Shown: positions 38,768 to 49,085, counted from the stretch's first letter. The stretch: 64,000 nucleotides of DNA from Clostridiales bacterium (GCA_022773945.1 JALFNS010000018.1:2960-66959); one strand, 5' to 3'. The notes: a model not told the origin generated them from the sequence alone. Numbers and translations are program-made.

Positions 38768-40264
38768 ATGATTAAGGATTACAGCAGGCTGCAGAACGGC
38801 AGCGATATCAGAGGTGTTGCCATAGAGGGAGTAGCAGGAGAGCCGGTGAATCTTGACAAGGAGGCGGCGTCACGAATAGGCGGAGCATTTATCAGATGGC
38901 TCGCGGCGAAAACAGGCAAGGCCCCGGAGACGCTGGTTGTGGGAGCAGGCAGAGACCCTCGACTCTCCGGACCGGAGCTCATGGAGGGACTCATGGCCGG
39001 TTTCTCCGCATTCGGGTGCAGAAGCTACGATTTCGGTCTGGCATCAACACCTGCCATGTTTATGGCAACCATATTCCCCGAGTTCGCCTGTGACGGAAGC
39101 ATTATGATAACGGCAAGCCACCTGCCTTATAACAGGAACGGCTTCAAGTTCTTCACGAGAGAAGGCGGACTTGAGAAGGCGGATATTAAAGAGATTCTCA
39201 GAATGGCAGGGGAGGGAGATTTCCCTCGGCCGGCAGAGCAGGCCGCGCCGGTGAGCGCCGATATTATAGAGCCTTATGCCGCTCATCTCAGGAAGCTCAT
39301 CATCGACGGCGCAGATCTGGGAGACAGACCGCTTGAGGGGCTGAAGATAACTGTGGATGCTGGCAACGGAAGCGGAGGCTTCTATGCAGGCAGAGTGCTG
39401 GAGCCTCTGGGGGCGGATGTGAGCTCGAGCCTCTATCTGGAGCCTGACGGCACCTTCCCGAATCACCAGCCGAACCCTGAGAACAAGGAAGCCATGGCGG
39501 CACTGTCCCGCGGAGTTCTCGAGTCGGGAGCCGACTTCGGCCTCATATTCGACACGGATGTGGACAGATCAGCAGCAGTTGACGGCAAAGGCAGAGAAAT
39601 TGCCAGAGACGGCATAGTGGCCATGGCATCGGCTCTGGTTGCTGAGGACTATCCGGGATCCACGGTGGTAACGGACAGCATAACGGGAAGACAGCTGACG
39701 GACTTTCTCGAAAACACACTGGGGCTCAGGCACCTGAGATTCAGGAGAGGCTACAGAAATGTAATTAACAAGGCTATCGAGCTTAACGAAGAAGGAGTGG
39801 ACAGCCACCTGGCCATTGAGACATCGGGACACGGTGCCTTCAAGGAGAATTACTTCCTGGATGACGGAGCGTATCTGGCCACGAGAATCACAGTCAAGGC
39901 GGCACGCCTCCACAGAGAGGGCAAAACCATCGACAGCCTCATAGAGAAACTGGAATACCCGGCCGAGGAGGAGGAAATCAGGATTCCTATAAGCGGAGAG
40001 GATTTCGGAGCCTACGGAGACAAGGTTCTGGAAGACCTTGAAGCCTTTGCGAGGGAAAAGGAGGGACTGTCGCTTGAGGAACCGAATTACGAAGGTGTGA
40101 GAATCAATTTCGGTGATTTCGGATGGTGCCTGCTGAGAAAATCCCTTCACGATCCGATCATGCCGCTGAATATAGCTTCCGATAAGGTCGGCGGGTGTAG
40201 CGAAATACGGGAAATTATGATAGAATTTCTCTCAGGGTATGAGAAGCTTGATACGGAGGTATAG
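38768..40264 (+). CDS. Phosphomannomutase/phosphoglucomutase
   Basis: NGSDIRG, ITASHLP (catalytic Ser), FDTDVDR and IETSGH motifs. Confidence 0.92.
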   Translation: MIKDYSRLQNGSDIRGVAIEGVAGEPVNLDKEAASRIGGAFIRWLAAKTGKAPETLVVGAGRDPRLSGPELMEGLMAGFSAFGCRSYDFGLASTPAMFMATIFPEFACDGSIMITASHLPYNRNGFKFFTREGGLEKADIKEILRMAGEGDFPRPAEQAAPVSADIIEPYAAHLRKLIIDGADLGDRPLEGLKITVDAGNGSGGFYAGRVLEPLGADVSSSLYLEPDGTFPNHQPNPENKEAMAALSRGVLESGADFGLIFDTDVDRSAAVDGKGREIARDGIVAMASALVAEDYPGSTVVTDSITGRQLTDFLENTLGLRHLRFRRGYRNVINKAIELNEEGVDSHLAIETSGHGAFKENYFLDDGAYLATRITVKAARLHREGKTIDSLIEKLEYPAEEEEIRIPISGEDFGAYGDKVLEDLEAFAREKEGLSLEEPNYEGVRINFGDFGWCLLRKSLHDPIMPLNIASDKVGGCSEIREIMIEFLSGYEKLDTEV

Positions 40265-40265
40265 T

Positions 40266-42476
40266 ATGAGCGATACTGTTCAGTACGTAACTTGCGGACA
40301 GATGAAAGAACTTGAAGAGAAGGCGGACGGCGCCGGGCTCTCCTACTATCAGATGATGGAGAACGCGGGCGGTGCAGCTGCCGAATATATAACGGAACAC
40401 TGGGACAAATGCAGCGTCGAGGTTTTTTGCGGCAAAGGCAACAACGGAGGCGACGGTTTTGTTGTGGCGAGGAAGCTTTACGTTTCCGGCTACAATGTCA
40501 CTGTGATTCTCGTTGACGGGGAGCCGGTGACACCTGATGCCATAATCAACTACGAGCTGGTGCAGAGGCTGCCTGTCGAGATTGTGGACATGAGCGATCC
40601 GGGCGGATACATGAGCCTCTTCAGCGAGGCGCCCCATCTCATAGTGGATGCCGTATACGGTACCGGATTCAGAGGCCACCTGCAGGATAACGGCCTCAAA
40701 GCCGCCATGTACATAAACAAGCACAAGTCGCTGGGAACCAGGATCATATCTCTGGACATCCCTTCGGGTCTGGGTGGCGACATGATGGAGATAGAGCCGG
40801 AATGCGGCGATGCGGTCAGAGCGGATGTGACGATTGCTTTTCATGCAGGCAAGCCGGTTCATCTGGCAGACGGTGCGGATGCTTTCTGCGGCGAGACGGT
40901 AATCGCGGACATCGGCATCGATGAAGCAATTGAAGCGGCTGAAGCGGCACTCGAGGAGGTGCAAAATCCCGAAGAACCGCTGCCGGCGGAGGAACCTGCG
41001 GAGGCTGAGCCCGTTGAGGAAGAGGCCGGCGAAGAGCCTGATCCGGAAGAGCCGGAACCGGCAGAAACGGAAACCCCGGCTGTGGACAGAAAGAAGCTTA
41101 AGAAGCTGGAGGAAATCCTGGACGGCTACGGCAGTATGCTTCTGGCCCTTTCGGGCGGAGTAGACAGCGTATTTCTCCTGGCCTTCGCCTACAGACACTG
41201 GGGAGACGACAGAATCGCCGCGGTTACGGCGACAGGCCCTTACTTCGACAAGGAGGAGGTCGAGTATGCCCGTGAAATCTGCAGCAGACTGGGAATAAGC
41301 CACAAGATATTTGATGCGGGATATGTCCTCGACATGGTAAAGGACAATCCTGAAGACAGATGCTACTGCTGCAAGAGGGAGATATTCTCCGCAGTGAGAA
41401 GCATGGCCCGTATGGCGGGAAGCACTGCCGCCGACGGAACCAACGTTGATGATACAGAAGACTACAGGCCGGGATGCAGAGCACTTCAGGAGCTTGAAAT
41501 CGCCAGTCCGCTTCTTGAGGCGGGACTTACCAAGGCGGAGATACGCGAAGCGCTGAAGGAAATCTGCGAAGAGGACAGAGAAATCGGCAAAGCTCTGGAA
41601 TTCACGGAAATGGGACGGCCTGTGAACATATGGGAGAAGCCGGCATTCGCATGTCTGGCGTCGAGGATTCCTTACGGCGAGGAGATAAACGAGAGGAAGC
41701 TTGAAGCCATAAGAATTTCAGAGCAGTGGCTCAAGGTCAGAGGCTTCGATCAGGTGAGAGTCAGATGTCACGAGATTTCAGGCACAACACCTGACGGACA
41801 GCCGGCGGTAATGGCCAGAATAGAGCTTCTGCCTGAGGATATAGAGAGATTCCTCTGCCTCAAGGATGATGCCGAATGGTCCTTCCGCAGGATGGGATTC
41901 AGTTATGTCACACTGGATCTGGGCGGATATGAGAAGGGCAAGATGAACCGGGGCATCCCGGAAGGCACTCCGGCTGCCGCTGCTACTGGGGAGAGACTGC
42001 AGGAGCAGGAGACCGTTGTCAGAGGCAGGTCCGACAGTGAAGCAATGGAGGCTCTTCACAAACAGATAGACGATTTCATCCGGGAGACGGAGAACAGGGA
42101 TTACACCTTCTCCGACCTGGTGGAGATAATAGGCAGACTCAGGGAGCCGGACGGGTGTCCGTGGGACAGAGAGCAGACGCATGAGAGTCTTAAGAAGCAT
42201 CTTGTCGAGGAGGCCAACGAAGCTCTGGAGGCAATAGATGAAGGCGATATGGATCACCTCTGCGAGGAACTGGGAGATGTTCTCCTGCAGGTTGTGCTCC
42301 ACGCGCGCATAGCTTCCGAAGACGGTGCATTCACAATAGACGATGTGATAAGGAAGGAAGCATCCAAGATGGTCAGAAGACATCCTCATGTCTTCGGTGA
42401 CATCAAGGTCGACGGCCTGGAGGAACAGCTTGACCTCTGGGAGGAGATTAAAAAAAGAGAGAAGCTGCTTAAGTGA
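40266..42476 (+). CDS. Tri-domain fusion: NAD(P)H-hydrate epimerase (YjeF_N/NnrE) + LarE-type sulfur transferase + MazG pyrophosphohydrolase
   Basis: NnrE: MENAG, GKGNNGGDG, VDAVYGTG, LDIPSG. LarE: ALSGGVDS, RCYCCK, DGTNVDD, RPG, ACLASRIPYG, VRVR, YVTLDLGGY. MazG: CPWDREQT, EEANE, EELGDVLLQ, RRHPHVF. One uninterrupted frame with RBS GGAGG. Confidence 0.88.
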   Translation: MSDTVQYVTCGQMKELEEKADGAGLSYYQMMENAGGAAAEYITEHWDKCSVEVFCGKGNNGGDGFVVARKLYVSGYNVTVILVDGEPVTPDAIINYELVQRLPVEIVDMSDPGGYMSLFSEAPHLIVDAVYGTGFRGHLQDNGLKAAMYINKHKSLGTRIISLDIPSGLGGDMMEIEPECGDAVRADVTIAFHAGKPVHLADGADAFCGETVIADIGIDEAIEAAEAALEEVQNPEEPLPAEEPAEAEPVEEEAGEEPDPEEPEPAETETPAVDRKKLKKLEEILDGYGSMLLALSGGVDSVFLLAFAYRHWGDDRIAAVTATGPYFDKEEVEYAREICSRLGISHKIFDAGYVLDMVKDNPEDRCYCCKREIFSAVRSMARMAGSTAADGTNVDDTEDYRPGCRALQELEIASPLLEAGLTKAEIREALKEICEEDREIGKALEFTEMGRPVNIWEKPAFACLASRIPYGEEINERKLEAIRISEQWLKVRGFDQVRVRCHEISGTTPDGQPAVMARIELLPEDIERFLCLKDDAEWSFRRMGFSYVTLDLGGYEKGKMNRGIPEGTPAAAATGERLQEQETVVRGRSDSEAMEALHKQIDDFIRETENRDYTFSDLVEIIGRLREPDGCPWDREQTHESLKKHLVEEANEALEAIDEGDMDHLCEELGDVLLQVVLHARIASEDGAFTIDDVIRKEASKMVRRHPHVFGDIKVDGLEEQLDLWEEIKKREKLLK

Positions 42477-42564: not shown

Positions 42565-43491
42565 CTATAGTTTGTCCGGCTGTTTAGTCGGCAGGTTGGC
42601 AACGACTATGGCGGCGAACATGAGAACGCAGCCCACAACCTCTCTGACGGACATCATCTCGCCCAGGATAATCATGCCGGCGATGAGCGCGAACACTGAC
42701 TCCAGGCAGAGTATCATGGAAGCGACCGTCGGATCGGCATCCTTCTGGGCAACTATCTGCAGGGTGTATGCCACGCCGCAGGAGAGCACGCCCGAGTAGA
42801 GGATCGGCAGCCATGAGCCGATGACCGTTGATACTGTAGGCAGGTCGAAGCCCAGAGCCGAGTCAACGGGTGCCATGAAGATGAGGGACAGGATTCCCGC
42901 TACGAAAAACTGTATGCAGGACATCTTGGTTCCGTCCACCTTCGGGGAGAAGTAGTCGATAACCAGAATGTGCACGGCGAAGAGCACGGCGCACAGGAGG
43001 ATTATCAGGTCTCCCTTATTGACATGTCCGAAGCCGGAGGCCGGTATGCACAGCAGATACAGGCCTACTGCCGAGGCCGCCACGCAGCACCATATCACCA
43101 GAGGAACTCTCTTCTTCAGGAAGAGTCCCAGCAGCGGAACGATTACCACGTACATAGCTGTGATGAAGCCTGAGTGACTTACGGATGTATAGAATATGCC
43201 TATCTGCTGAACGTTCCCCGCCAGACAGAGAACCAGGCCGCAGCATACGCCGCCGATTATGAGAAGCTTCTTCTCGGTCTTCTTCTCTTCAGGTGTTCTT
43301 GTATCCTCACCCTTCTTACCGTTGAGAAGAAGAATGACAGGAATCAGAACCAGGGCGCCGATCAGTGTACGTATACCGTTGAAGGCGAGAGGTCCGATAA
43401 GATCCATTCCCTCCTTCTGGGCCACGAAGGACGTACCCCATATGAGAGCTGTCAGCATAAGCAGTGCATCACTTTTGAGTTTTTTACCCAT
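42565..43491 (-). CDS. DMT/EamA family transporter
   Basis: ALIWGTSFVAQK, GFITAMYVV and LESVFA motifs; ten hydrophobic segments. Confidence 0.9.
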   Translation of the reverse strand: MGKKLKSDALLMLTALIWGTSFVAQKEGMDLIGPLAFNGIRTLIGALVLIPVILLLNGKKGEDTRTPEEKKTEKKLLIIGGVCCGLVLCLAGNVQQIGIFYTSVSHSGFITAMYVVIVPLLGLFLKKRVPLVIWCCVAASAVGLYLLCIPASGFGHVNKGDLIILLCAVLFAVHILVIDYFSPKVDGTKMSCIQFFVAGILSLIFMAPVDSALGFDLPTVSTVIGSWLPILYSGVLSCGVAYTLQIVAQKDADPTVASMILCLESVFALIAGMIILGEMMSVREVVGCVLMFAAIVVANLPTKQPDKL

Positions 43492-43510
43492 GTTACCTCC
43501 GTTCGGGTTT

Positions 43511-44725
43511 TTATATGAGGGCTTCTGCCCCGAGAATTTTCACTGTCTTGTGTATTCTGGAGAAGATCATCATCTCCAGCAGCCCTTCCGGACTCTTGTC
43601 CGCATTCATAAGCTCTCTGATTCGCGAAAGCCTGTAGCGCACCGTGTTGGGATGCTGATACAGTCTGGAAGCTGTGAGCTTGACATCCAGAAGGCTGTCC
43701 GTGTATGCCATGAGAGTGTCCGTGAGAGCCGAATCGTGAGTATTGTCGTATTCCGTGAGCCTGTCAAGGCGGCTTCTGTAAAACTCCCTGTAGGCTTCCG
43801 TTCTGAAGAAGGGAACCAGAACCATGTCGGAACCCGTATCCTCGAACCTGCAGAAAGCCTCATTCTCCAGAACACCGTGAACCGCGGCGGTCATGGATTC
43901 GCTTATAGCCTCCCGCATGGAGCCCAGCCCTCTTCGCGGTGAGGATATTCCCACAGCGAAATCTCTCTGATTTGTGTTGAATTCCTTAAGCACTTCCCCG
44001 GCGCGCAGAATCGCATCTGTATCCTCTCGTTCCGGGAATTTGCTCGTGTGTATAATCACTATGCATTTCTCGCAGCGAATCAGGGAATCGTGGGAATCCG
44101 GATTGTGCATCTGCCCGGAGAAAGTTTTCCTGTAGCCCGCCAGAGCTCTGTCCAGAGCCTCGCGAAAGGCGTCCTCTCCGTAGCCGCATCCCAGAGGGAT
44201 ACAGCAAAGGCACCTGATGTTGTTATAGAAGAGCGGATTCAGATTCCGGGCTGCAGTCACCAGATTCTCCTCCTTCTCTCCCATGAGTCTCTTGAGACAG
44301 TCCAAGGCGATGGTGTTGGAGTCCTTCGCCAGAAGACTGCTTCTCACGGTGAAAATCAGGTCTTCCAGATATGTGTCGCTGTAGGTGAGAAGGGGAATCT
44401 TAAGCTTGTCCGCCATGGTTATAAGCCGCTCCGGGAGAATATCCCGAAGGGACATGCTCTTGTCCGCCAGCTTGAAGGATACGGCAGAGACACCTAGTCT
44501 CAGGAGGGCCTCAACCCCCGCGTCGCCTTTGCTACGGTTGCTGTCCTGCATGTACAGGGTTGTGAACACCATGTCACCTCGCGAAAACGTCTCGTAGATG
44601 TCTTCGGGATCTTCCCACTCGAGAATACCAACGCCTTCAATCTCGTTGTATATGCCCTCTCCGGAATTCTCAAGTCTGAATCCGGCGAAGATGGGAAGTG
44701 CCAGCAGATCCACCACTCTCAGCAT
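43511..44725 (-). CDS. PucR-family transcriptional regulator
   Basis: N-terminal PucR sensor (GVGILEWE..GDMVFTT), central GGDEF-like region, C-terminal LYQHPNTVRYRLSRI HTH. Start at MLRVVD after an AAGGAGG RBS. Confidence 0.85.
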   Translation of the reverse strand: MLRVVDLLALPIFAGFRLENSGEGIYNEIEGVGILEWEDPEDIYETFSRGDMVFTTLYMQDSNRSKGDAGVEALLRLGVSAVSFKLADKSMSLRDILPERLITMADKLKIPLLTYSDTYLEDLIFTVRSSLLAKDSNTIALDCLKRLMGEKEENLVTAARNLNPLFYNNIRCLCCIPLGCGYGEDAFREALDRALAGYRKTFSGQMHNPDSHDSLIRCEKCIVIIHTSKFPEREDTDAILRAGEVLKEFNTNQRDFAVGISSPRRGLGSMREAISESMTAAVHGVLENEAFCRFEDTGSDMVLVPFFRTEAYREFYRSRLDRLTEYDNTHDSALTDTLMAYTDSLLDVKLTASRLYQHPNTVRYRLSRIRELMNADKSPEGLLEMMIFSRIHKTVKILGAEALI

Positions 44726-44802: not shown

Positions 44803-44831
44803 TTGTAAACAATACAGACACATTCTATAAT
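44803..44831 (+). promoter_or_regulatory. Sigma-A promoter of the cobamide operon (leaderless)
   Basis: TTGTAA-17bp-TATAAT, then 6 nt to the ATG at 44838; no SD sequence. Confidence 0.6.
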
Positions 44832-44837
44832 GTATCT

Positions 44838-45608
44838 ATGATGAATATGAAAGACAGAATATATATAGCCACGATGAGTGAAAACTGGCGTTATATTGCG
44901 GAGGAATACGGTCTGAAGTTGGAGCTTGATCACTTCTGTCAGGCTCAGAACATGGACGGAGAGCAGGGGGAGAAAACCCTCGCCGAGGTGCGGAATCTGA
45001 CGGGAGACGGCGGATTTGGCGCCGCGGTGCTTCACGGTCCCTTTAACGAGCTCTTCCCGGCGGCGATAGATCCGCAGGCCAGAGCGCTGGCGATGAACAG
45101 GCTGAATCAGGCGGCGAATACAGCCGTGGATCTGGGAATCAGGAAGATGGTTGTCCACTCGGGATACATTCCCTTCGTATATTTCAGGGAATGGCACAGG
45201 GACAGATCCATCGAGTTCTGGCGGGAGTTCATGGAAGACAAGCCGGCGGATTTCATTCTGACCATCGAGAACGTGCTGGATGAGGATCCGTATACGATGG
45301 CTGAGATCGCGGAGGGCATCGGTGATGAGCGTGTGGGACTCTGTCTCGACGTGGGTCACGCCAATGTGGTGTCAGAGCTTGATATAGAGGAATGGATACG
45401 TGTCTTCGGACCTCATCTGAAGCATGTCCATCTCCACAACAACGACGGAAGCGGGGATTATCACGATGAAGTGTTCCGGGGAGAACTGCCTGCGGAGAGG
45501 CTCATGGAGATATTCTCGGGAAGTGATTTCAACGATACCGGCATTACCCTGGAGGTTATTCAGGGAAGGGAATCAGCACGCTGGCTGCACGAAAGAGGGT
45601 ACATATGA
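44838..45608 (+). CDS. AP endonuclease 2 / xylose-isomerase-like TIM-barrel protein; candidate cobamide remodelling enzyme CbiR
   Basis: LHGPF, VVHSG, IENV, CLDVGH, HVHLHNNDG..DYH and TLEV metal motifs; stop overlaps the cobT start. Confidence 0.7.
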   Translation: MMNMKDRIYIATMSENWRYIAEEYGLKLELDHFCQAQNMDGEQGEKTLAEVRNLTGDGGFGAAVLHGPFNELFPAAIDPQARALAMNRLNQAANTAVDLGIRKMVVHSGYIPFVYFREWHRDRSIEFWREFMEDKPADFILTIENVLDEDPYTMAEIAEGIGDERVGLCLDVGHANVVSELDIEEWIRVFGPHLKHVHLHNNDGSGDYHDEVFRGELPAERLMEIFSGSDFNDTGITLEVIQGRESARWLHERGYI

Positions 45609-46759
45609 TAAGAGAAACTGCGGGAAGGATAAGACCTGCCGACAAGGATATAATGGAAAAGGCGCGACAGAGACAGGAGTCGCTGGCCAAGCCTCCCGGA
45701 AGTCTGGGAGGTCTGGAGGAAATCTCCATAAGAGTGGCGGGCATGACCGGCCGCGTTATCAACAGAATAGAGAGAGGCTGCGTCGCAGTGTTCTGTGCGG
45801 ACAACGGTGTGGCCGCCGAAGGAGTGGCATCGGCACCTCAGAGTGTGACCATGGCTCAGACGGTGAACTTTACCAGGCGGCTGACGGGAGTGGGTGCACT
45901 GGCCGAGTCCTTCGGCAGCGAACTGCTCATAGTGGATATGGGCGTCAAGGACCCCATACCGGCAGAGCTCTACTGCAGCGAGCCTCTGGAGGATACACAT
46001 AAGATAGTGAACAGGCGCATACGTCTGGCAAAAGGTGAGACGGGAAACATAGCCACAGGGCCTGCAATGACGAGAGAAGAGGCGGAAGCTTCTCTGGCGG
46101 CCGGAGTTGAGATGGCAGATGCCATCAGGGACGCCGGTTATGATATTATGGGTATAGGCGAGATGGGAATAGGCAATACCACGACAAGCGCCGCGGTGCT
46201 CTCGGCTGTCACGGGACTCACCTCGGAGGAGACGGTGGGCCGCGGCGGCGGCGTCAATGACGAAGGCTTCCGGAGGAAGAAAGAAATTGTGGATTTTGCA
46301 GCGGCGGAATATGTGAACCGGGGCGGTATACTTAAATCTTCCGAGGACCCGGCAGAAGACATGGTTGAAGCGCTGGCCCGCATGGGCGGCTTCGATCTCT
46401 GTGCCATGACGGGAGCCTATCTGGGTGCGGCGGCGAACAGAATGCCCGTCGTGATAGACGGGTACATATCCGTGGTGGCCGCACTGGCTGCCCGGGTGAT
46501 AAATCCGGATGCGGCGGACTACATGATAGCGTCTCATAAATCCTGGGAAAAAGGCTATTCCCGGGCTGTGGAGATTCTGGGACTCAAGCCTTTTCTCGCT
46601 CTGGACATGCGTCTGGGAGAGGGCAGCGGATGCCCCGTGGCTTTCAGGATTATCAGAGGCGCCTGCGATGTCATGGCTAATATGGCAACCTTCAGTGAAG
46701 CGGCTATTAACGATGAGTATCTGGAGGAAATACGTGCGAAGGACAGTTACAGAAGGTAG
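45605..46759 (+). CDS. cobT: Nicotinate-nucleotide--dimethylbenzimidazole phosphoribosyltransferase
   Basis: LAKPPGSLGGLE, VFCADNGV, GEMGIGNTT, VIDGYIS and MRLGEGSG motifs. Confidence 0.95.
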   Translation: MIRETAGRIRPADKDIMEKARQRQESLAKPPGSLGGLEEISIRVAGMTGRVINRIERGCVAVFCADNGVAAEGVASAPQSVTMAQTVNFTRRLTGVGALAESFGSELLIVDMGVKDPIPAELYCSEPLEDTHKIVNRRIRLAKGETGNIATGPAMTREEAEASLAAGVEMADAIRDAGYDIMGIGEMGIGNTTTSAAVLSAVTGLTSEETVGRGGGVNDEGFRRKKEIVDFAAAEYVNRGGILKSSEDPAEDMVEALARMGGFDLCAMTGAYLGAAANRMPVVIDGYISVVAALAARVINPDAADYMIASHKSWEKGYSRAVEILGLKPFLALDMRLGEGSGCPVAFRIIRGACDVMANMATFSEAAINDEYLEEIRAKDSYRR

Positions 46760-46765
46760 TTATCG

Positions 46766-47296
46766 ATGAATGTATTTATAAGCGGCGGCTGCAAAAACGG
46801 TAAGTCATATCAGGCTCAGCGTATCGCCCGGGATCAGGCCCGGGGCGGGGATCTCTACTATGTGGCCACGATGATTCCCGGAGATGATGAGGATCTGAAG
46901 CGAATTGCACGTCACCTGCGTGAACGTGAGGGCTGGGGATTCACAACTCTGGAGCGGCCTGTGAATATACTGGAGCTGACTGAGCGGCCCGATGTGAATC
47001 TCGGCGGCTCATTTCTCGTGGACAGCGTCACCGCCATTCTTCAGAATGAGATGTTCACCCCAGAAGGAGAGATGGATGGGGAGGCACCGGAGCGGGTGGC
47101 GCGGGACATGGTGCGCTTCGCCGAAATGACGGGCAATACGGTGTTTGTATCCGACTATATATACGGAGATCTGGGAATGTACAGCGAGTCCACGGAGGAG
47201 TACAGGTGCGGACTGGCCGCTGTGGACAGGGCTCTCGCCGCGGCATGCGACAGGGTGATTGAGATATCCTACGGCACGGAGGAAGTCTGGAAATGA
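46766..47296 (+). CDS. cobU: Adenosylcobinamide kinase/phosphate guanylyltransferase
   Basis: SGGCKNGKS, YYVATM, RIARH and LVDSVT motifs. Confidence 0.85.
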   Translation: MNVFISGGCKNGKSYQAQRIARDQARGGDLYYVATMIPGDDEDLKRIARHLREREGWGFTTLERPVNILELTERPDVNLGGSFLVDSVTAILQNEMFTPEGEMDGEAPERVARDMVRFAEMTGNTVFVSDYIYGDLGMYSESTEEYRCGLAAVDRALAAACDRVIEISYGTEEVWK

Positions 47297-48069
47297 AATA
47301 TATAAGAGGTTTTTTAATGGCCTGGGGGATGTTCTGCTGGATTCCATGCCCCTACAGGCAGTGGCGCATGGAGGACCGGCGGGCCCAGATAGGGATGCTG
47401 CCTCTGGTGGGGCTTTTAATGGGTGTGATTCTCTGCGTCCTCTGGAAGCTCATGCTTATGTTTGTCAGCGTGGGGCCGGTGCTGGCGGGAGTGCTTCTGA
47501 CGGGAGCGTATTTCCTCATGACCGGGTTCATTCACCTGGACGGCTTCATGGACTGCAGCGACGCCATCATGCCGAGGCATCCGTCCCTGGAGGAAAGACG
47601 CAGAATCCTGAAGGATTCCCATTCGGGAGCCTTCGCTTTGATCTGCGCCGTAATTCTCTTCATGGTTTTCGCGGCCTCCCTGGGGGAGGTATATGAAAGC
47701 GCCGGGTTGCCGCTCTTCGCGGCGGTGGTGTGCGTGCTCACCTGTTCGAGAACTGTGAGCGCCGTATCCGTGCTGGTATGCAGACCCATGGAGACAAGTC
47801 AGTATGTGCAGACTCAGGGGAGAGGCCGGGAAACGGCAGCTCCGGTAATAACAGCCGCCCTGGCGGTGGCTTTGAGCCTTTGCGCGGTACGGGGGACTGC
47901 GGGTGACATGCTCCTCGTGATTCTGCCGGCGGCGGTGACGGTGGCGGCAGCGCTGGTTGCGGGATTTTATGACAGGAAGAAGCTTGAGGGAATGAACGGA
48001 GATATATCCGGTCACATGATAACCCTCTCGGAAATGGCCGGAATTCTCACGGCCGCGTTGATGATATAA
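47293..48069 (+). CDS. cobS: Adenosylcobinamide-GDP ribazoletransferase
   Basis: TGFIHLDGFMDCSDA, ILKDSHSGAF and GMNGDISG motifs; membrane protein. Confidence 0.93.
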   Translation: MKYIRGFLMAWGMFCWIPCPYRQWRMEDRRAQIGMLPLVGLLMGVILCVLWKLMLMFVSVGPVLAGVLLTGAYFLMTGFIHLDGFMDCSDAIMPRHPSLEERRRILKDSHSGAFALICAVILFMVFAASLGEVYESAGLPLFAAVVCVLTCSRTVSAVSVLVCRPMETSQYVQTQGRGRETAAPVITAALAVALSLCAVRGTAGDMLLVILPAAVTVAAALVAGFYDRKKLEGMNGDISGHMITLSEMAGILTAALMI

Positions 48070-48081
48070 TCAGGAGGTAAG

Positions 48082-48453
48082 ATGATACTTGTATTCGGAG
48101 GCGCCTATCAGGGCAAACTGGATTACGTGAGAGAGAACCTGGTGCAGGGCCGGGAGTGGGACTGCGCAGGCGGGGCGCCGGACTTCAGCGCCGATGTGAT
48201 CTGCGGTGTGGAGAGCTTCGTCATGGACTGCGTTGACAGGGGCACTGAGGCCGCCGATTATTTCAGGGAACACAGAGATGAGTGGATAGGCGATAAGGTG
48301 CTGATTCTGACGGATGCTTCCCAGGGTGTGGTGCCCGTTGAGCGTAGGCTGCGGGATTTCAGGGAGATGAACGGCCGGCTGATGATATATCTGGCCGGTG
48401 AAGCGGATAAGGTAGTGAGAGTATTTTGCGGAATAGGTAAGCAGGTGAAATAA
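48082..48453 (+). CDS. Short CobU/CobP-like protein
   Basis: MILVFGGAYQGKLDY, GVVPVE..RDFRE..GR and LAGEADKVVRVFCGI motifs. Confidence 0.75.
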   Translation: MILVFGGAYQGKLDYVRENLVQGREWDCAGGAPDFSADVICGVESFVMDCVDRGTEAADYFREHRDEWIGDKVLILTDASQGVVPVERRLRDFREMNGRLMIYLAGEADKVVRVFCGIGKQVK

Positions 48454-49085
48454 TGAGCAAAGGCATTAAATCGGAAATCGTTCTCATCAGACACGGAATC
48501 ACAACGGGCAACATTCGCAAACTGTACTACGGCAGCACGGATGTGCCTCTGGCGGACAAAGGCATCAGAGGACTTGAGGAGAACAAGGCTAGCGGTATCT
48601 ACCCCGACGGTGATGCTGCGGATTTTTACACTTCCGGAATGCTCCGCACGGAGCAGACTCTGGAGCTTATCTACGGCGCCAGGGAGCACGTGAAGATTCC
48701 TCAGCTGCGGGAGCTTCACTTCGGTGAGTTCGAGATGAAGAGCTATGACGAGCTGAACAAAGTTCCCGAGTACAGAGCCTGGATCAACTGCGGCGACGAC
48801 ACCATGCCCCCTCCGGGCGGCGAGAGCATCGCTCAATTCACAAAGAGAGCCAGAGAAGGTTTCGACATACTTCGCAATCTTCACGGTCATCGCGTTCTCA
48901 GTCTCAGACACCGTGACGAGGAGGCCAGGAGCATATGCATCTGTCACGGCGGAGTCATCTCCGGCATCATGGCATACATCTGGCCCGGCGAACACAAGAA
49001 CTTCTATCAGTGGATTCCCGACCCGGGACACGGCTACATCCTGACCCTGGACGGCGGAGAGGTTACGGACCGCACCATGTTCTAG
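48453..49085 (+). CDS. cobC: Histidine phosphatase family, probable alpha-ribazole-phosphate phosphatase
   Basis: LIRHGIT, LRELHFGEFE and CHGGVI motifs; last gene of the cob operon. Confidence 0.75.
   Translation: MSKGIKSEIVLIRHGITTGNIRKLYYGSTDVPLADKGIRGLEENKASGIYPDGDAADFYTSGMLRTEQTLELIYGAREHVKIPQLRELHFGEFEMKSYDELNKVPEYRAWINCGDDTMPPPGGESIAQFTKRAREGFDILRNLHGHRVLSLRHRDEEARSICICHGGVISGIMAYIWPGEHKNFYQWIPDPGHGYILTLDGGEVTDRTMF

What the first reader, a model, noticed from the sequence alone, without database searches (positions are those of the whole stretch)
44838..49085. Cobamide remodelling operon led by a CbiR-like TIM-barrel enzyme
Seen: an AP-endonuclease-2/xylose-isomerase-like gene overlaps cobT (ATGA) and heads cobT-cobU-cobS-cobU-like-cobC. 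No corrin ring synthesis genes or cbiZ are present in the window. Established: CbiR of Akkermansia muciniphila belongs to this superfamily and cleaves cobamides to cobinamide-phosphate plus the ribosyl-base, which CobU, CobS, CobT and CobC can rebuild with a new lower ligand. Inference: this is a compact lower-ligand swapping module in a Firmicute. The operon appears leaderless, leaving no room for the usual cobalamin riboswitch.
Basis: partly seen in the sequence, partly recalled or inferred. Interest (0 to 1): 0.6.

Follow-up and report, generated by a model that had tools for sequence, protein, structure and literature searches.

The report
CbiR-like cobamide remodelling operon, Clostridia
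A pig-gut Clostridia bacterium that cannot make vitamin B12-type cofactors carries a six-gene operon to rebuild their lower half, led by an unannotated metal enzyme that probably cuts imported cofactors open, as CbiR of Akkermansia does, though it belongs to a separate branch of that enzyme superfamily.

Summary
A 256-aa xylose-isomerase-like TIM-barrel gene (44838-45608) overlaps cobT by ATGA and heads cobT-cobU-cobS-short cobU-like-cobC.

CbiR (NF041277) is the best curated match, but at 46.9 bits against a cut-off of 105. In trees the protein sits in its own well-supported clade, apart from endonuclease IV and sugar epimerases. Its sister group is unresolved.

Context, not sequence, ties the family to cobamides:
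- The same cassette occurs in 51 of 80 related loci.
- TIM-CobT fusion proteins exist.
- In loci without cobT the gene lies in cobalamin-riboswitch-linked uptake loci (DUF4430, ECF transporter).

The aligned endonuclease IV metal ligands (eight of nine, by profile alignment) are conserved, which favours phosphodiester hydrolysis. The genome (98.6% complete) lacks CbiZ, CbiB and CbiC but has MetH and two B12-dependent aminomutases.

No riboswitch precedes the operon here, nor in the 19 TIM-first relatives scanned. A -10 box ends 6 nt before the ATG and there is no Shine-Dalgarno, so a leaderless start is plausible but unproven. A divergent PucR regulator and EamA transporter recur beside it.

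This scan already noted the same cassette in another genome (e1-1479101). Activity is untested, and A. muciniphila CbiR could not be fetched for direct comparison.

The parts
42565..43491 (-). EamA/DMT-family transporter, a recurrent divergent neighbour of the operon
   Evidence: PF00892 EamA at 124 bits. A homologue lies just upstream of, or beside, the TIM-cobT cassette in about 30 of the 51 cobT-linked loci. Its substrate is unknown; import of a lower-ligand base or export of the released riboside is inference only.
43511..44725 (-). PucR-family transcription regulator, divergent from the operon
   Evidence: PF07905 PucR plus PF13556 HTH_30. The likely start is the ATG at 44725, preceded by AGGAGG. 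A PucR-family gene occupies the same slot between EamA and the TIM gene in L003, L017, L024 and L033.
44803..44831 (+). Sigma-70-like promoter (TTGTAA-17-TATAAT) whose -10 box ends 6 nt before the ATG
   Evidence: Joint-best match (10 of 12) in the 5-kb scan. No Shine-Dalgarno lies before 44838. A similar -10 box 5-9 nt before the ATG, again without a Shine-Dalgarno, is seen in L003, L010, L015, L016, L062 and L067. These are consensus matches only; no transcript-start data exist.
44838..45608 (+). CbiR-like TIM-barrel metallo-phosphodiesterase candidate (256 aa)
   Evidence: PF01261. The best NCBIfam hit is CbiR NF041277 at 46.9 bits (cut-off 105), collinear over residues 8-242. The AlphaFold model has pLDDT 97.3. 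The nearest solved structures are TTHB071 and MJ1311, then endonuclease IV. Invariant residues H66, H107, E144, D171, H174, H198, D207, H209 and E239; all but H66 align to the endonuclease IV ligands H109, E145, D179, H182, H216, D229, H231 and E261.
45605..46759 (+). CobT, nicotinate-nucleotide:base phosphoribosyltransferase
   Evidence: PF02277 at 392 bits; TIGR03160 at 374 bits, over its cut-off of 319. The start overlaps the TIM gene's stop as ATGA.
46766..47296 (+). CobU, cobinamide kinase / cobinamide-phosphate guanylyltransferase (divergent)
   Evidence: PF02283 at 82.7 bits; NF004469 at 58.7 bits, under its cut-off of 161. The P-loop GGCKNGKS and the RIARHLRER histidine motif are present in the translation.
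47293..48069 (+). CobS, cobamide-5'-phosphate synthase
   Evidence: PF02654 at 121.9 bits; TIGR00317 at 81.9 bits, under its cut-off of 110.
48082..48453 (+). Short CobU-like protein (123 aa) of unknown role
   Evidence: Only residues 70-119 match the C-terminal end of the CobU model (27.8 bits). The N-terminal GGAYQGK is a degenerate P-loop and there is no histidine motif. It shows no significant similarity to the full CobU. It is conserved in virtually every cobT-linked locus and in the operon that carries the TIM-CobT fusion.
48453..49085 (+). CobC-like alpha-ribazole-phosphate / cobamide-phosphate phosphatase
   Evidence: PF00300 at 102 bits. The best NCBIfam hit is TIGR03162 ribazole_cobC at 92 bits, under its cut-off of 163.

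Best explanation
This is a self-contained cobamide lower-ligand exchange and salvage operon in a cobamide-auxotrophic pig-gut Clostridia bacterium. The proposed mechanism is as follows. The first gene product is a small endonuclease IV-like TIM-barrel metalloenzyme. It hydrolyses the phosphodiester of the nucleotide loop of imported cobamides, as CbiR of Akkermansia muciniphila does, giving cobinamide-phosphate plus the alpha-riboside of the old base. CobU guanylylates cobinamide-phosphate. CobT activates the preferred base to its alpha-ribotide. CobS joins the two. CobC removes the 5'-phosphate. The operon is not under a cobalamin riboswitch, which makes sense for genes whose substrate is a cobamide. 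It is probably transcribed from a promoter placed so that the mRNA starts at or next to the ATG, and it may be controlled by the divergent PucR-family regulator. What is shown: gene content, conserved synteny, fusion, riboswitch-linked paralogous contexts, conserved metal ligands, genome-wide absence of corrin synthesis, CbiZ and CbiB, and presence of cobamide-dependent enzymes. What is inferred: the substrate and bond cleaved, the leaderless start, and the roles of PucR, EamA and the short CobU-like protein.
For: (1) Synteny. 51 of 80 related loci from species-representative genomes carry TIM-cobT-cobU-cobS-cobU'-cobC, at only 40-64% TIM identity.
(2) Fusion. P0178 (619 aa) is a TIM plus full-length CobT fusion sitting in a cobU-cobS-cobU' operon. 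P0174 is a second, truncated fusion.
(3) Loci without cobT. There the TIM gene lies next to DUF4430 proteins and ECF transporter genes. Cobalamin riboswitches lie directly upstream or downstream in 7 of the 12 loci scanned. The two contexts interleave on the tree, so one cobamide-related function fits the whole core clade.
(4) Chemistry. Nine invariant His/Asp/Glu residues; eight align to endonuclease IV metal ligands, and the HxH and CxDVGH motifs are shared with CbiR-model proteins. CbiR is the top NCBIfam hit for 105 of 106 family representatives.
(5) The genome has its own true endonuclease IV, at 287 bits.
(6) The genome lacks CbiZ, CbiB and CbiC. It encodes MetH, a lysine-5,6-aminomutase-like protein and an ornithine-4,5-aminomutase-like protein, and has two cobalamin riboswitches in front of surface/DUF4430 loci.
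(7) The published mechanism and locus logic of CbiR are given in PMC7733943.
Against: The score on the curated CbiR model is far below its cut-off: 46.9 against 105 bits. Profile comparison is no closer to a CbiR-model protein (E 1.6e-5) than to E. coli endonuclease IV (E 1.6e-8). AU tests cannot tell which is the sister group. A. muciniphila CbiR itself could not be obtained, so no direct alignment was made. All 15 other genomes of the same order that carry the family also have CbiC, so the enzyme is not specific to auxotrophs and could have another role in nucleotide-loop assembly. Outer members of the wider family, seen on short contigs, show no cobamide context. One fusion to RecQ exists. 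No enzymatic or transcript-start data exist.
Confidence: 0.6

Rival explanations
1. The TIM-barrel enzyme is cobamide-related but does a different job from CbiR. Possibilities include cleaving the other ester of the loop phosphate (giving cobinamide plus alpha-ribazole-3'-phosphate), hydrolysing cobinamide-GDP or an alpha-ribotide, or proofreading wrongly assembled cobamides during de novo synthesis.
For: The family is its own clade, not nested among CbiR-model proteins. All 15 other carriers sampled in the same order are CbiC-positive, that is, likely producers. The operon's CobU appears to keep its P-loop, so a cobinamide product could still be used. The tight coupling and fusion are with CobT specifically, not with CobU or CobS.
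Against: The uptake-locus contexts (DUF4430, ECF transporter, riboswitch) fit an enzyme that acts on incoming complete cobamides. A. muciniphila strains that have de novo synthesis also keep CbiR (PMC7733943). CobC already supplies the phosphatase step.
Confidence: 0.22
2. It is a DNA-repair nuclease of the endonuclease IV type that merely sits beside cob genes.
For: The endonuclease IV metal ligands are conserved and the profile match to E. coli Nfo has 95% probability. Endonuclease IV structures rank just after TTHB071 and MJ1311. One metagenomic protein fuses the domain to a RecQ helicase. An Exo_endo_phos gene is a neighbour in L005.
Against: The genome already has a bona fide endonuclease IV above its cut-off. 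The family forms a separate clade from 11 endonuclease IV sequences, with 100% support. Synteny with cobT/U/S/C in 51 loci, the CobT fusions and the riboswitch association are not expected for a repair gene. The protein is about 30 residues shorter than Nfo.
Confidence: 0.05
3. It is a sugar or sugar-phosphate isomerase/epimerase, as public annotation says, perhaps acting on a ribose moiety.
For: Database names given by sources are 'sugar phosphate isomerase/epimerase'. There are weak NCBIfam hits to fructoselysine 3-epimerase and related families in part of the family.
Against: Those names are generic superfamily labels. No sugar-metabolism neighbours are conserved. The nine-residue site follows the endonuclease IV pattern for the eight residues aligned. 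The E. coli Hyi, FrlC and SgbU sequences fall outside the clade.
Confidence: 0.05

Closest known systems
CbiR of Akkermansia muciniphila (Amuc_1679; NCBIfam NF041277; Mok et al. 2020, PMC7733943)
   Same: Both are AP-endonuclease-2 / xylose-isomerase-like TIM barrels of about 250 aa with conserved His/Asp/Glu metal ligands. Both are encoded next to, and co-oriented with, cobT/cobU/cobS/cobC. Both occur in an organism that salvages rather than makes corrinoids. CbiR is the best curated model hit.
   Different: The score is 46.9 bits against a cut-off of 105. The protein lies in a separate, strongly supported clade. The Clostridia lineages carrying it (Anaerovoracaceae, Lentihominibacter, Sedimentibacter and others) do not appear in the paper's Table S1. 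The only three Firmicutes entries there are weak hits that are not next to cobamide genes. Activity is untested, and no direct alignment to Amuc_1679 was possible.
TTHB071 (PDB 3AYT/3AYV, Thermus thermophilus) and MJ1311 (PDB 3WQO, Methanocaldococcus jannaschii), small endonuclease IV-like TIM barrels
   Same: These are the closest solved structures (Foldseek E 2e-13 and 8e-12, TM about 0.75). MJ1311 is the closest PDB sequence to the family profile (E 3.3e-28), sharing the HAPF..L.PA, HxGY, EN, DxGHAN and HxHxxD..D.H motifs.
   Different: The PDB titles assign no function ('uncharacterized', 'D-tagatose 3-epimerase-like'). Identity is about 22%. Their genomic contexts could not be examined here.
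Endonuclease IV (Nfo; TIGR00587)
   Same: Same fold, and eight metal ligands align one-for-one in the profile alignment.
   Different: Nfo is a different clade. The match to deoxyribonuclease IV models is only 33.6 bits against a cut-off of 244. The genome has a separate true Nfo. The protein is shorter, and its context is cobamide genes rather than repair genes.
CbiZ amidohydrolase route of cobamide remodelling (Rhodobacter sphaeroides, archaea)
   Same: Same physiological purpose: removing an unwanted lower ligand so that the loop can be rebuilt.
   Different: CbiZ is an unrelated fold and cleaves a different bond (the amide). It needs CbiB afterwards. Neither CbiZ nor CbiB is found in this genome.

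Membership tests
CbiR (NCBIfam NF041277, equivalog) | Whole-protein score at or above the curated cut-off (105 bits) | tested here: not met
   46.9 bits, E 2.3e-12, collinear over model positions 9-236 of 249. None of 106 family representatives exceeds the cut-off; the best E-value is 5.4e-24.
CbiR (as defined in Mok et al. 2020) | AP endonuclease 2 superfamily TIM barrel with conserved His/Asp/Glu metal-binding residues | tested here: met
   PF01261 at 81 bits. The model is a TIM barrel with pLDDT 97. Nine invariant His/Asp/Glu residues; eight align to Nfo ligands and the same positions are conserved in CbiR-model proteins.
CbiR (as defined in Mok et al. 2020) | [quoted passage not shown] | tested here: met
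   ATGA overlap with cobT. The same arrangement is seen in 51 of 80 related loci.
CbiR (as defined in Mok et al. 2020) | BLAST E < 1e-14 to A. muciniphila CbiR and placement in the CbiR clade | tested here: inconclusive
   The Amuc_1679 sequence could not be fetched with the tools. Against Bacillota proteins that pass or approach the CbiR model, the family is a separate clade. AU tests accept both family+CbiR-hits (p 0.76) and family+EndoIV (p 0.80).
CbiR | Hydrolyses cobamides to cobinamide-phosphate plus alpha-riboside | not testable with these tools
   A biochemical assay is needed.
Endonuclease IV (TIGR00587 / NF002198) | Score above the curated cut-off and placement in the Nfo clade | tested here: not met
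   33.6 bits against 244. The Nfo clade of 11 sequences excludes it with 100% support. The genome's own Nfo is at C3:18367-19179.
Cobalamin riboswitch (RF00174) control of the operon | Aptamer upstream of the first gene | tested here: not met
   There is no hit in the window. None precedes the TIM gene in the 19 scanned relatives where TIM heads the operon. The exception is L070, where a riboswitch leads a divergent cobT operon. The genome has two riboswitches elsewhere.
Nucleotide-loop assembly pathway (CobT, CobU, CobS, CobC) | All four activities encoded | tested here: met
   CobT is over the TIGR03160 cut-off. CobU, CobS and the His_Phos_1 protein pass Pfam gathering scores but fall under the NCBIfam equivalog cut-offs, so they are divergent.
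Leaderless mRNA | Transcription start at or within a few nt of the start codon, with no Shine-Dalgarno | tested here: inconclusive
   The -10 TATAAT ends 6 nt before the ATG and there is no Shine-Dalgarno. The same geometry is seen in six relatives. Metatranscriptome contigs do not cover the start.

The most novel reading that the evidence does not exclude
The Clostridia family is an independently recruited endonuclease IV-like phosphodiesterase lineage, not an orthologue of Akkermansia CbiR. It forms a dedicated lower-ligand exchange module together with three conserved partners: a PucR-type regulator that replaces the riboswitch, an EamA transporter for the base or the released riboside, and a short degenerate CobU-like protein. 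The enzyme works physically coupled to CobT, as the natural TIM-CobT fusions suggest. It may have a cleavage site or substrate range different from that of CbiR.
Probability: 0.25. Interest if true: 0.7.

Novelty: new variant of a known kind. Interest (0 to 1): 0.5.

Why it matters
Cobamide structure decides which gut microbes can use which B12 analogue. Remodelling has been shown biochemically only for CbiZ, certain CobS homologues and Akkermansia CbiR.

This family is annotated only as 'sugar phosphate isomerase/epimerase'. It escapes the curated CbiR model. It is absent from the published list of CbiR homologues. It occurs in at least 179 loci of the species-representative genome collection, mostly gut and rumen Anaerovoracaceae and relatives.

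If it is a cobamide phosphodiesterase, remodelling would extend to a widespread group of amino-acid-fermenting Firmicutes that depend on AdoCbl aminomutases. Predictions of corrinoid cross-feeding from genomes would need to include it. The riboswitch-free, possibly leaderless, PucR-flanked layout also offers a testable example of how a cobamide-consuming operon avoids repression by its own substrate.

Tried and rejected
1. Fetching A. muciniphila CbiR for a direct alignment failed.
- A phylum-wide genome search with NF041277 gave only three Bacillota proteins over the cut-off. These come from Anoxybacter and Thermaerobacter (named), genera whose entries in the paper's Table S1 are weak hits not adjacent to cobamide genes.
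- These proteins, and others scoring 74-100 bits, have no cobT/U/S/C and no cobalamin riboswitch within 8 kb on either side. They are not validated CbiRs and make a poor reference set.
- A profile search seeded with them returned no Akkermansia protein.

2. Resolving the sister group by phylogeny failed. The backbone is a polytomy, the careful search did not finish in time, and AU tests accepted both alternatives.

3. Transcript evidence was not obtained. RNA-library contigs from pig-gut metatranscriptomes cover bits of cobT, cobS, the cobU-like gene and cobC at 100% identity but not the TIM gene or its start. They are contigs and may derive from DNA, so they give no transcript start and no proof of expression.

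4. Genes inserted between cobT and cobU in some relatives (an aminotransferase and an acetyl-CoA hydrolase) are unrelated insertions.

5. The context of outer family members was uninformative: the contigs are short and show no cobamide genes.

6. The ESM Atlas look-up gave only generic names.

7. Literature on MJ1311 gave nothing on function.
Full report
**Observation**

Pfam and NCBIfam name them as follows:

| Coordinates | Length | Assignment |
|---|---|---|
| 44838-45608 | 256 aa | AP_endonuc_2 / xylose-isomerase-like TIM barrel |
| 45605-46759 | 384 aa | CobT, over the TIGR03160 cut-off |
| 46766-47296 | 176 aa | CobU |
| 47293-48069 | 258 aa | CobS |
| 48082-48453 | 123 aa | matches only the last 50 residues of the CobU model |
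| 48453-49085 | 210 aa | histidine phosphatase, best hit CobC |

The TIM gene and cobT overlap as ATGA at 45605-45608. CobU, CobS and CobC pass Pfam thresholds but fall below NCBIfam equivalog cut-offs, so they are divergent versions. CobU keeps a P-loop and the RIARHLRER histidine motif. The 123-aa protein has only a degenerate GGAYQGK and no histidine motif. It shows no significant pairwise similarity to CobU.

**The organism**

The window lies in a 1.83-Mb, 50-contig genome estimated 98.6% complete. Near-identical DNA is found in pig-gut metagenomes from many studies.

- The genome has no match to CbiZ, CobD/CbiB or CbiC.
- It encodes an 804-aa MetH, a lysine-5,6-aminomutase-like beta subunit and an ornithine-4,5-aminomutase-like protein.
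- It has two cobalamin riboswitches, which precede large surface proteins, and two DUF4430 loci, one of which adjoins the C35 riboswitch.
- It has a bona fide endonuclease IV elsewhere, at 287 bits.

It is therefore a cobamide user that cannot make the corrin ring, and it keeps only the nucleotide-loop module. Twelve of 13 sampled genomes of its own family have CbiC, so loss of synthesis looks recent.

**What the TIM-barrel protein is**

- *Curated models.* CbiR (NF041277) is the best NCBIfam hit, collinear over nearly the whole length, but at 46.9 bits against a cut-off of 105. Deoxyribonuclease IV comes next at 33.6 bits.
- *Family size.* The protein belongs to a large family. A word-indexed search found 543 clusters at 90% identity. 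An exhaustive profile search found 449 representatives at 50% identity with E < 1e-30. Where sources name these proteins at all, the names are generic: 'sugar phosphate isomerase/epimerase' or 'TIM barrel protein'.
- *Relation to the CbiR model.* 105 of 106 representatives hit the CbiR model, and none reaches its cut-off.
- *Metal site.* Among 21 diverse members the residues H66, H107, E144, D171, H174, H196/H198/H200, D207, H209 and E239 are invariant. Profile alignment to E. coli Nfo (probability 95.5%) puts H107, E144, D171, H174, H198, D207, H209 and E239 on the metal ligands H109, E145, D179, H182, H216, D229, H231 and E261. H66 lies outside the aligned stretch. It matches the HAPF motif of MJ1311.
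- *Motifs shared with CbiR-model proteins.* Alignment to the Anoxybacter protein that scores 154 bits on the CbiR model shows the same positions, plus shared CxDVGH and HLH motifs.
- *Chemistry.* A site following the endonuclease IV pattern points to phosphodiester hydrolysis rather than sugar isomerisation. This is inference.
- *Structure.* The AlphaFold model is confident, with pLDDT 97.3. The nearest solved structures are the small endonuclease IV-like proteins TTHB071 and MJ1311, to which the PDB titles assign no function, followed by true endonuclease IV and then ketose epimerases.

**Phylogeny**

The trees included family members, Bacillota proteins scoring 71-154 bits on the CbiR model, 11 endonuclease IV sequences, and E. 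coli Hyi, FrlC and SgbU. The family is a single clade (99-100% SH-aLRT) and endonuclease IV is another (100%). The backbone is unresolved.

AU tests do not reject the family grouping with the CbiR-model proteins (p 0.76). They do not reject it grouping with endonuclease IV either (p 0.80).

There are two caveats:
- A. muciniphila CbiR itself could not be obtained.
- The Bacillota 'CbiR-model' proteins are not validated. Those over the cut-off come from Anoxybacter and Thermaerobacter, genera that Mok et al. list as weak hits not adjacent to cobamide genes. I likewise found no cob genes or riboswitch within 8 kb of them on either side.

The protein therefore does not cluster inside sugar isomerases or endonuclease IV, and it is not shown to be a CbiR orthologue.

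**Context ties the family to cobamides**

This is the strongest evidence.

- *Synteny.* Of 80 related loci from species-representative genomes (179 confirmed in all), 51 have TIM-cobT-cobU-cobS-cobU'-cobC. TIM identity in these is only 40-64%.
- *Fusion.* A 619-aa metagenomic protein fuses the TIM barrel to a full CobT, inside a cobU-cobS-cobU' operon. A second, truncated fusion exists.
- *Uptake loci.* In the 27 loci without cobT, the commonest neighbours are DUF4430 proteins (the domain family of the C-terminal part of eukaryotic B12 binders, per PMC4350170, title only) and ECF transporter components, including fused A-A-S proteins and CbiQ.
- *Riboswitches.* Cobalamin riboswitches lie directly upstream of the TIM-containing operon in L008, L021 and L050. 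They lie immediately downstream of the TIM gene in L004, L005, L007 and L011. That is 7 of the 12 loci scanned.
- *Interleaving.* cobT-linked and uptake-linked members interleave on the tree, with 6 changes of context. One cobamide-directed function for the core clade is the economical reading.

Evidence pointing the other way:
- Outer family members seen on short contigs show no such context.
- One protein fuses the domain to RecQ.
- All 15 other carriers sampled in the same order also have CbiC. The enzyme is therefore not restricted to auxotrophs. That is also true of CbiR in Akkermansia.

**Regulation**

No Rfam family is found in the window. I scanned 20 cobT-linked relatives. None of the 19 with TIM at the head of the operon has a riboswitch in front of it. 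L070 has one in front of a divergent cobT operon.

The intergenic region is 112 bp once the PucR start is placed at the ATG at 44725, which has an AGGAGG upstream. The joint-best sigma-70-like site of the 5-kb scan is TTGTAA-17-TATAAT at 44803-44831. It ends 6 nt before the ATG at 44838, and no Shine-Dalgarno follows. A -10-like box 5-9 nt before the ATG, again without a Shine-Dalgarno, recurs in L003, L010, L015, L016, L062 and L067, while other relatives have ordinary Shine-Dalgarno sequences. A leaderless start is thus plausible for this sublineage, at roughly 0.6, but it is unproven. Metatranscriptome contigs did not cover the start.

A PucR-family regulator sits divergently between an EamA transporter and the TIM gene here and in L003, L017, L024 and L033. 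EamA homologues flank the cassette in about 30 of the 51 cobT-linked loci. Their roles are inferred only.

**Comparison with the known, and verdict**

The module works like the CbiR locus of A. muciniphila (PMC7733943). A superfamily phosphodiesterase would open the nucleotide loop, and CobU, CobT, CobS and CobC would rebuild it, in a genome without CbiZ or CbiB. Membership in the curated CbiR family fails on score and is unresolved on phylogeny. I therefore file it as a new variant of a known kind: a distinct, unannotated Clostridia clade with a CbiR-like context.

The scan has already reported the same cassette in another genome (e1-1479101), and the leaderless geometry on this window (e1-5169884). 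My tests agree with both notes. Interest is moderate. The prediction is coherent, widespread in gut Firmicutes and directly testable, but a specialist who knows CbiR would not be greatly surprised.

Noticed in passing
window 40239-42476 (+): A 745-aa protein combines a YjeF_N NAD(P)HX-epimerase domain, a LarE-like ATP-dependent sulfur-transferase / PP-loop domain (TIGR00268 at 246 bits, over its cut-off) and a C-terminal MazG domain. This is an unusual three-part fusion.
   Followed up: no
window 48082-48453 (+); also L003-L081 and L121:7489-7860: A 123-aa degenerate CobU-like protein is conserved between cobS and cobC in essentially every cobT-linked cassette. It has a C-terminal CobU segment only, a GGAYQGK remnant in place of a P-loop, and no guanylyl-histidine motif. 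Its role is unknown.
   Followed up: partly
window 42565-44725 (-); L003, L017, L024, L033 and others: An EamA transporter and a PucR-family regulator recur divergently upstream of the TIM-cobT cassette. They are candidates for a base or riboside transporter and for a protein regulator that stands in for the riboswitch.
   Followed up: partly
L045:1957-2826 and L048:6341-6970: In two relatives an NADPH-dependent FMN reductase gene lies directly upstream of, and co-oriented with, the TIM gene. It may be a corrinoid or flavin reductase partner.
   Followed up: no
G000 contigs C35:3079-4752 and C3:61914-67553 (L090, L091): The genome's two cobalamin riboswitches do not precede classical BtuFCD genes. 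One precedes a family-less protein that follows a 128-aa DUF4430 gene. The other precedes a 1052-aa Ig-like surface protein followed by a subtilase. These may be a corrinoid-capture apparatus.
   Followed up: partly
L104-L115, L135-L142: Bacillota proteins that score best on the NCBIfam CbiR model (74-154 bits, three of them over the cut-off, from Anoxybacter and Thermaerobacter) have no cob genes and no B12 riboswitch within 8 kb on either side. The cobamide-linked clade scores only about 47 bits. In this phylum the model score does not track cobamide context.
   Followed up: partly
L122:1853-4513 (P0123): An 886-aa metagenomic protein fuses a member of this TIM family to a complete RecQ helicase (DEAD, Helicase_C, RecQ_Zn_bind, RQC, HRDC). 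It is a single short contig, and the fusion could be a chance event or an assembly artefact.
   Followed up: partly
G000 versus its family: 12 of 13 sampled genomes of the window's own family have CbiC, but this genome does not. This suggests recent loss of corrin-ring synthesis with retention of the loop-assembly cassette.
   Followed up: partly
G462:C8:67952-68701: The family member in one genome of the same family carries an in-frame TAG. It may be a pseudogene or a sequencing error.
   Followed up: no
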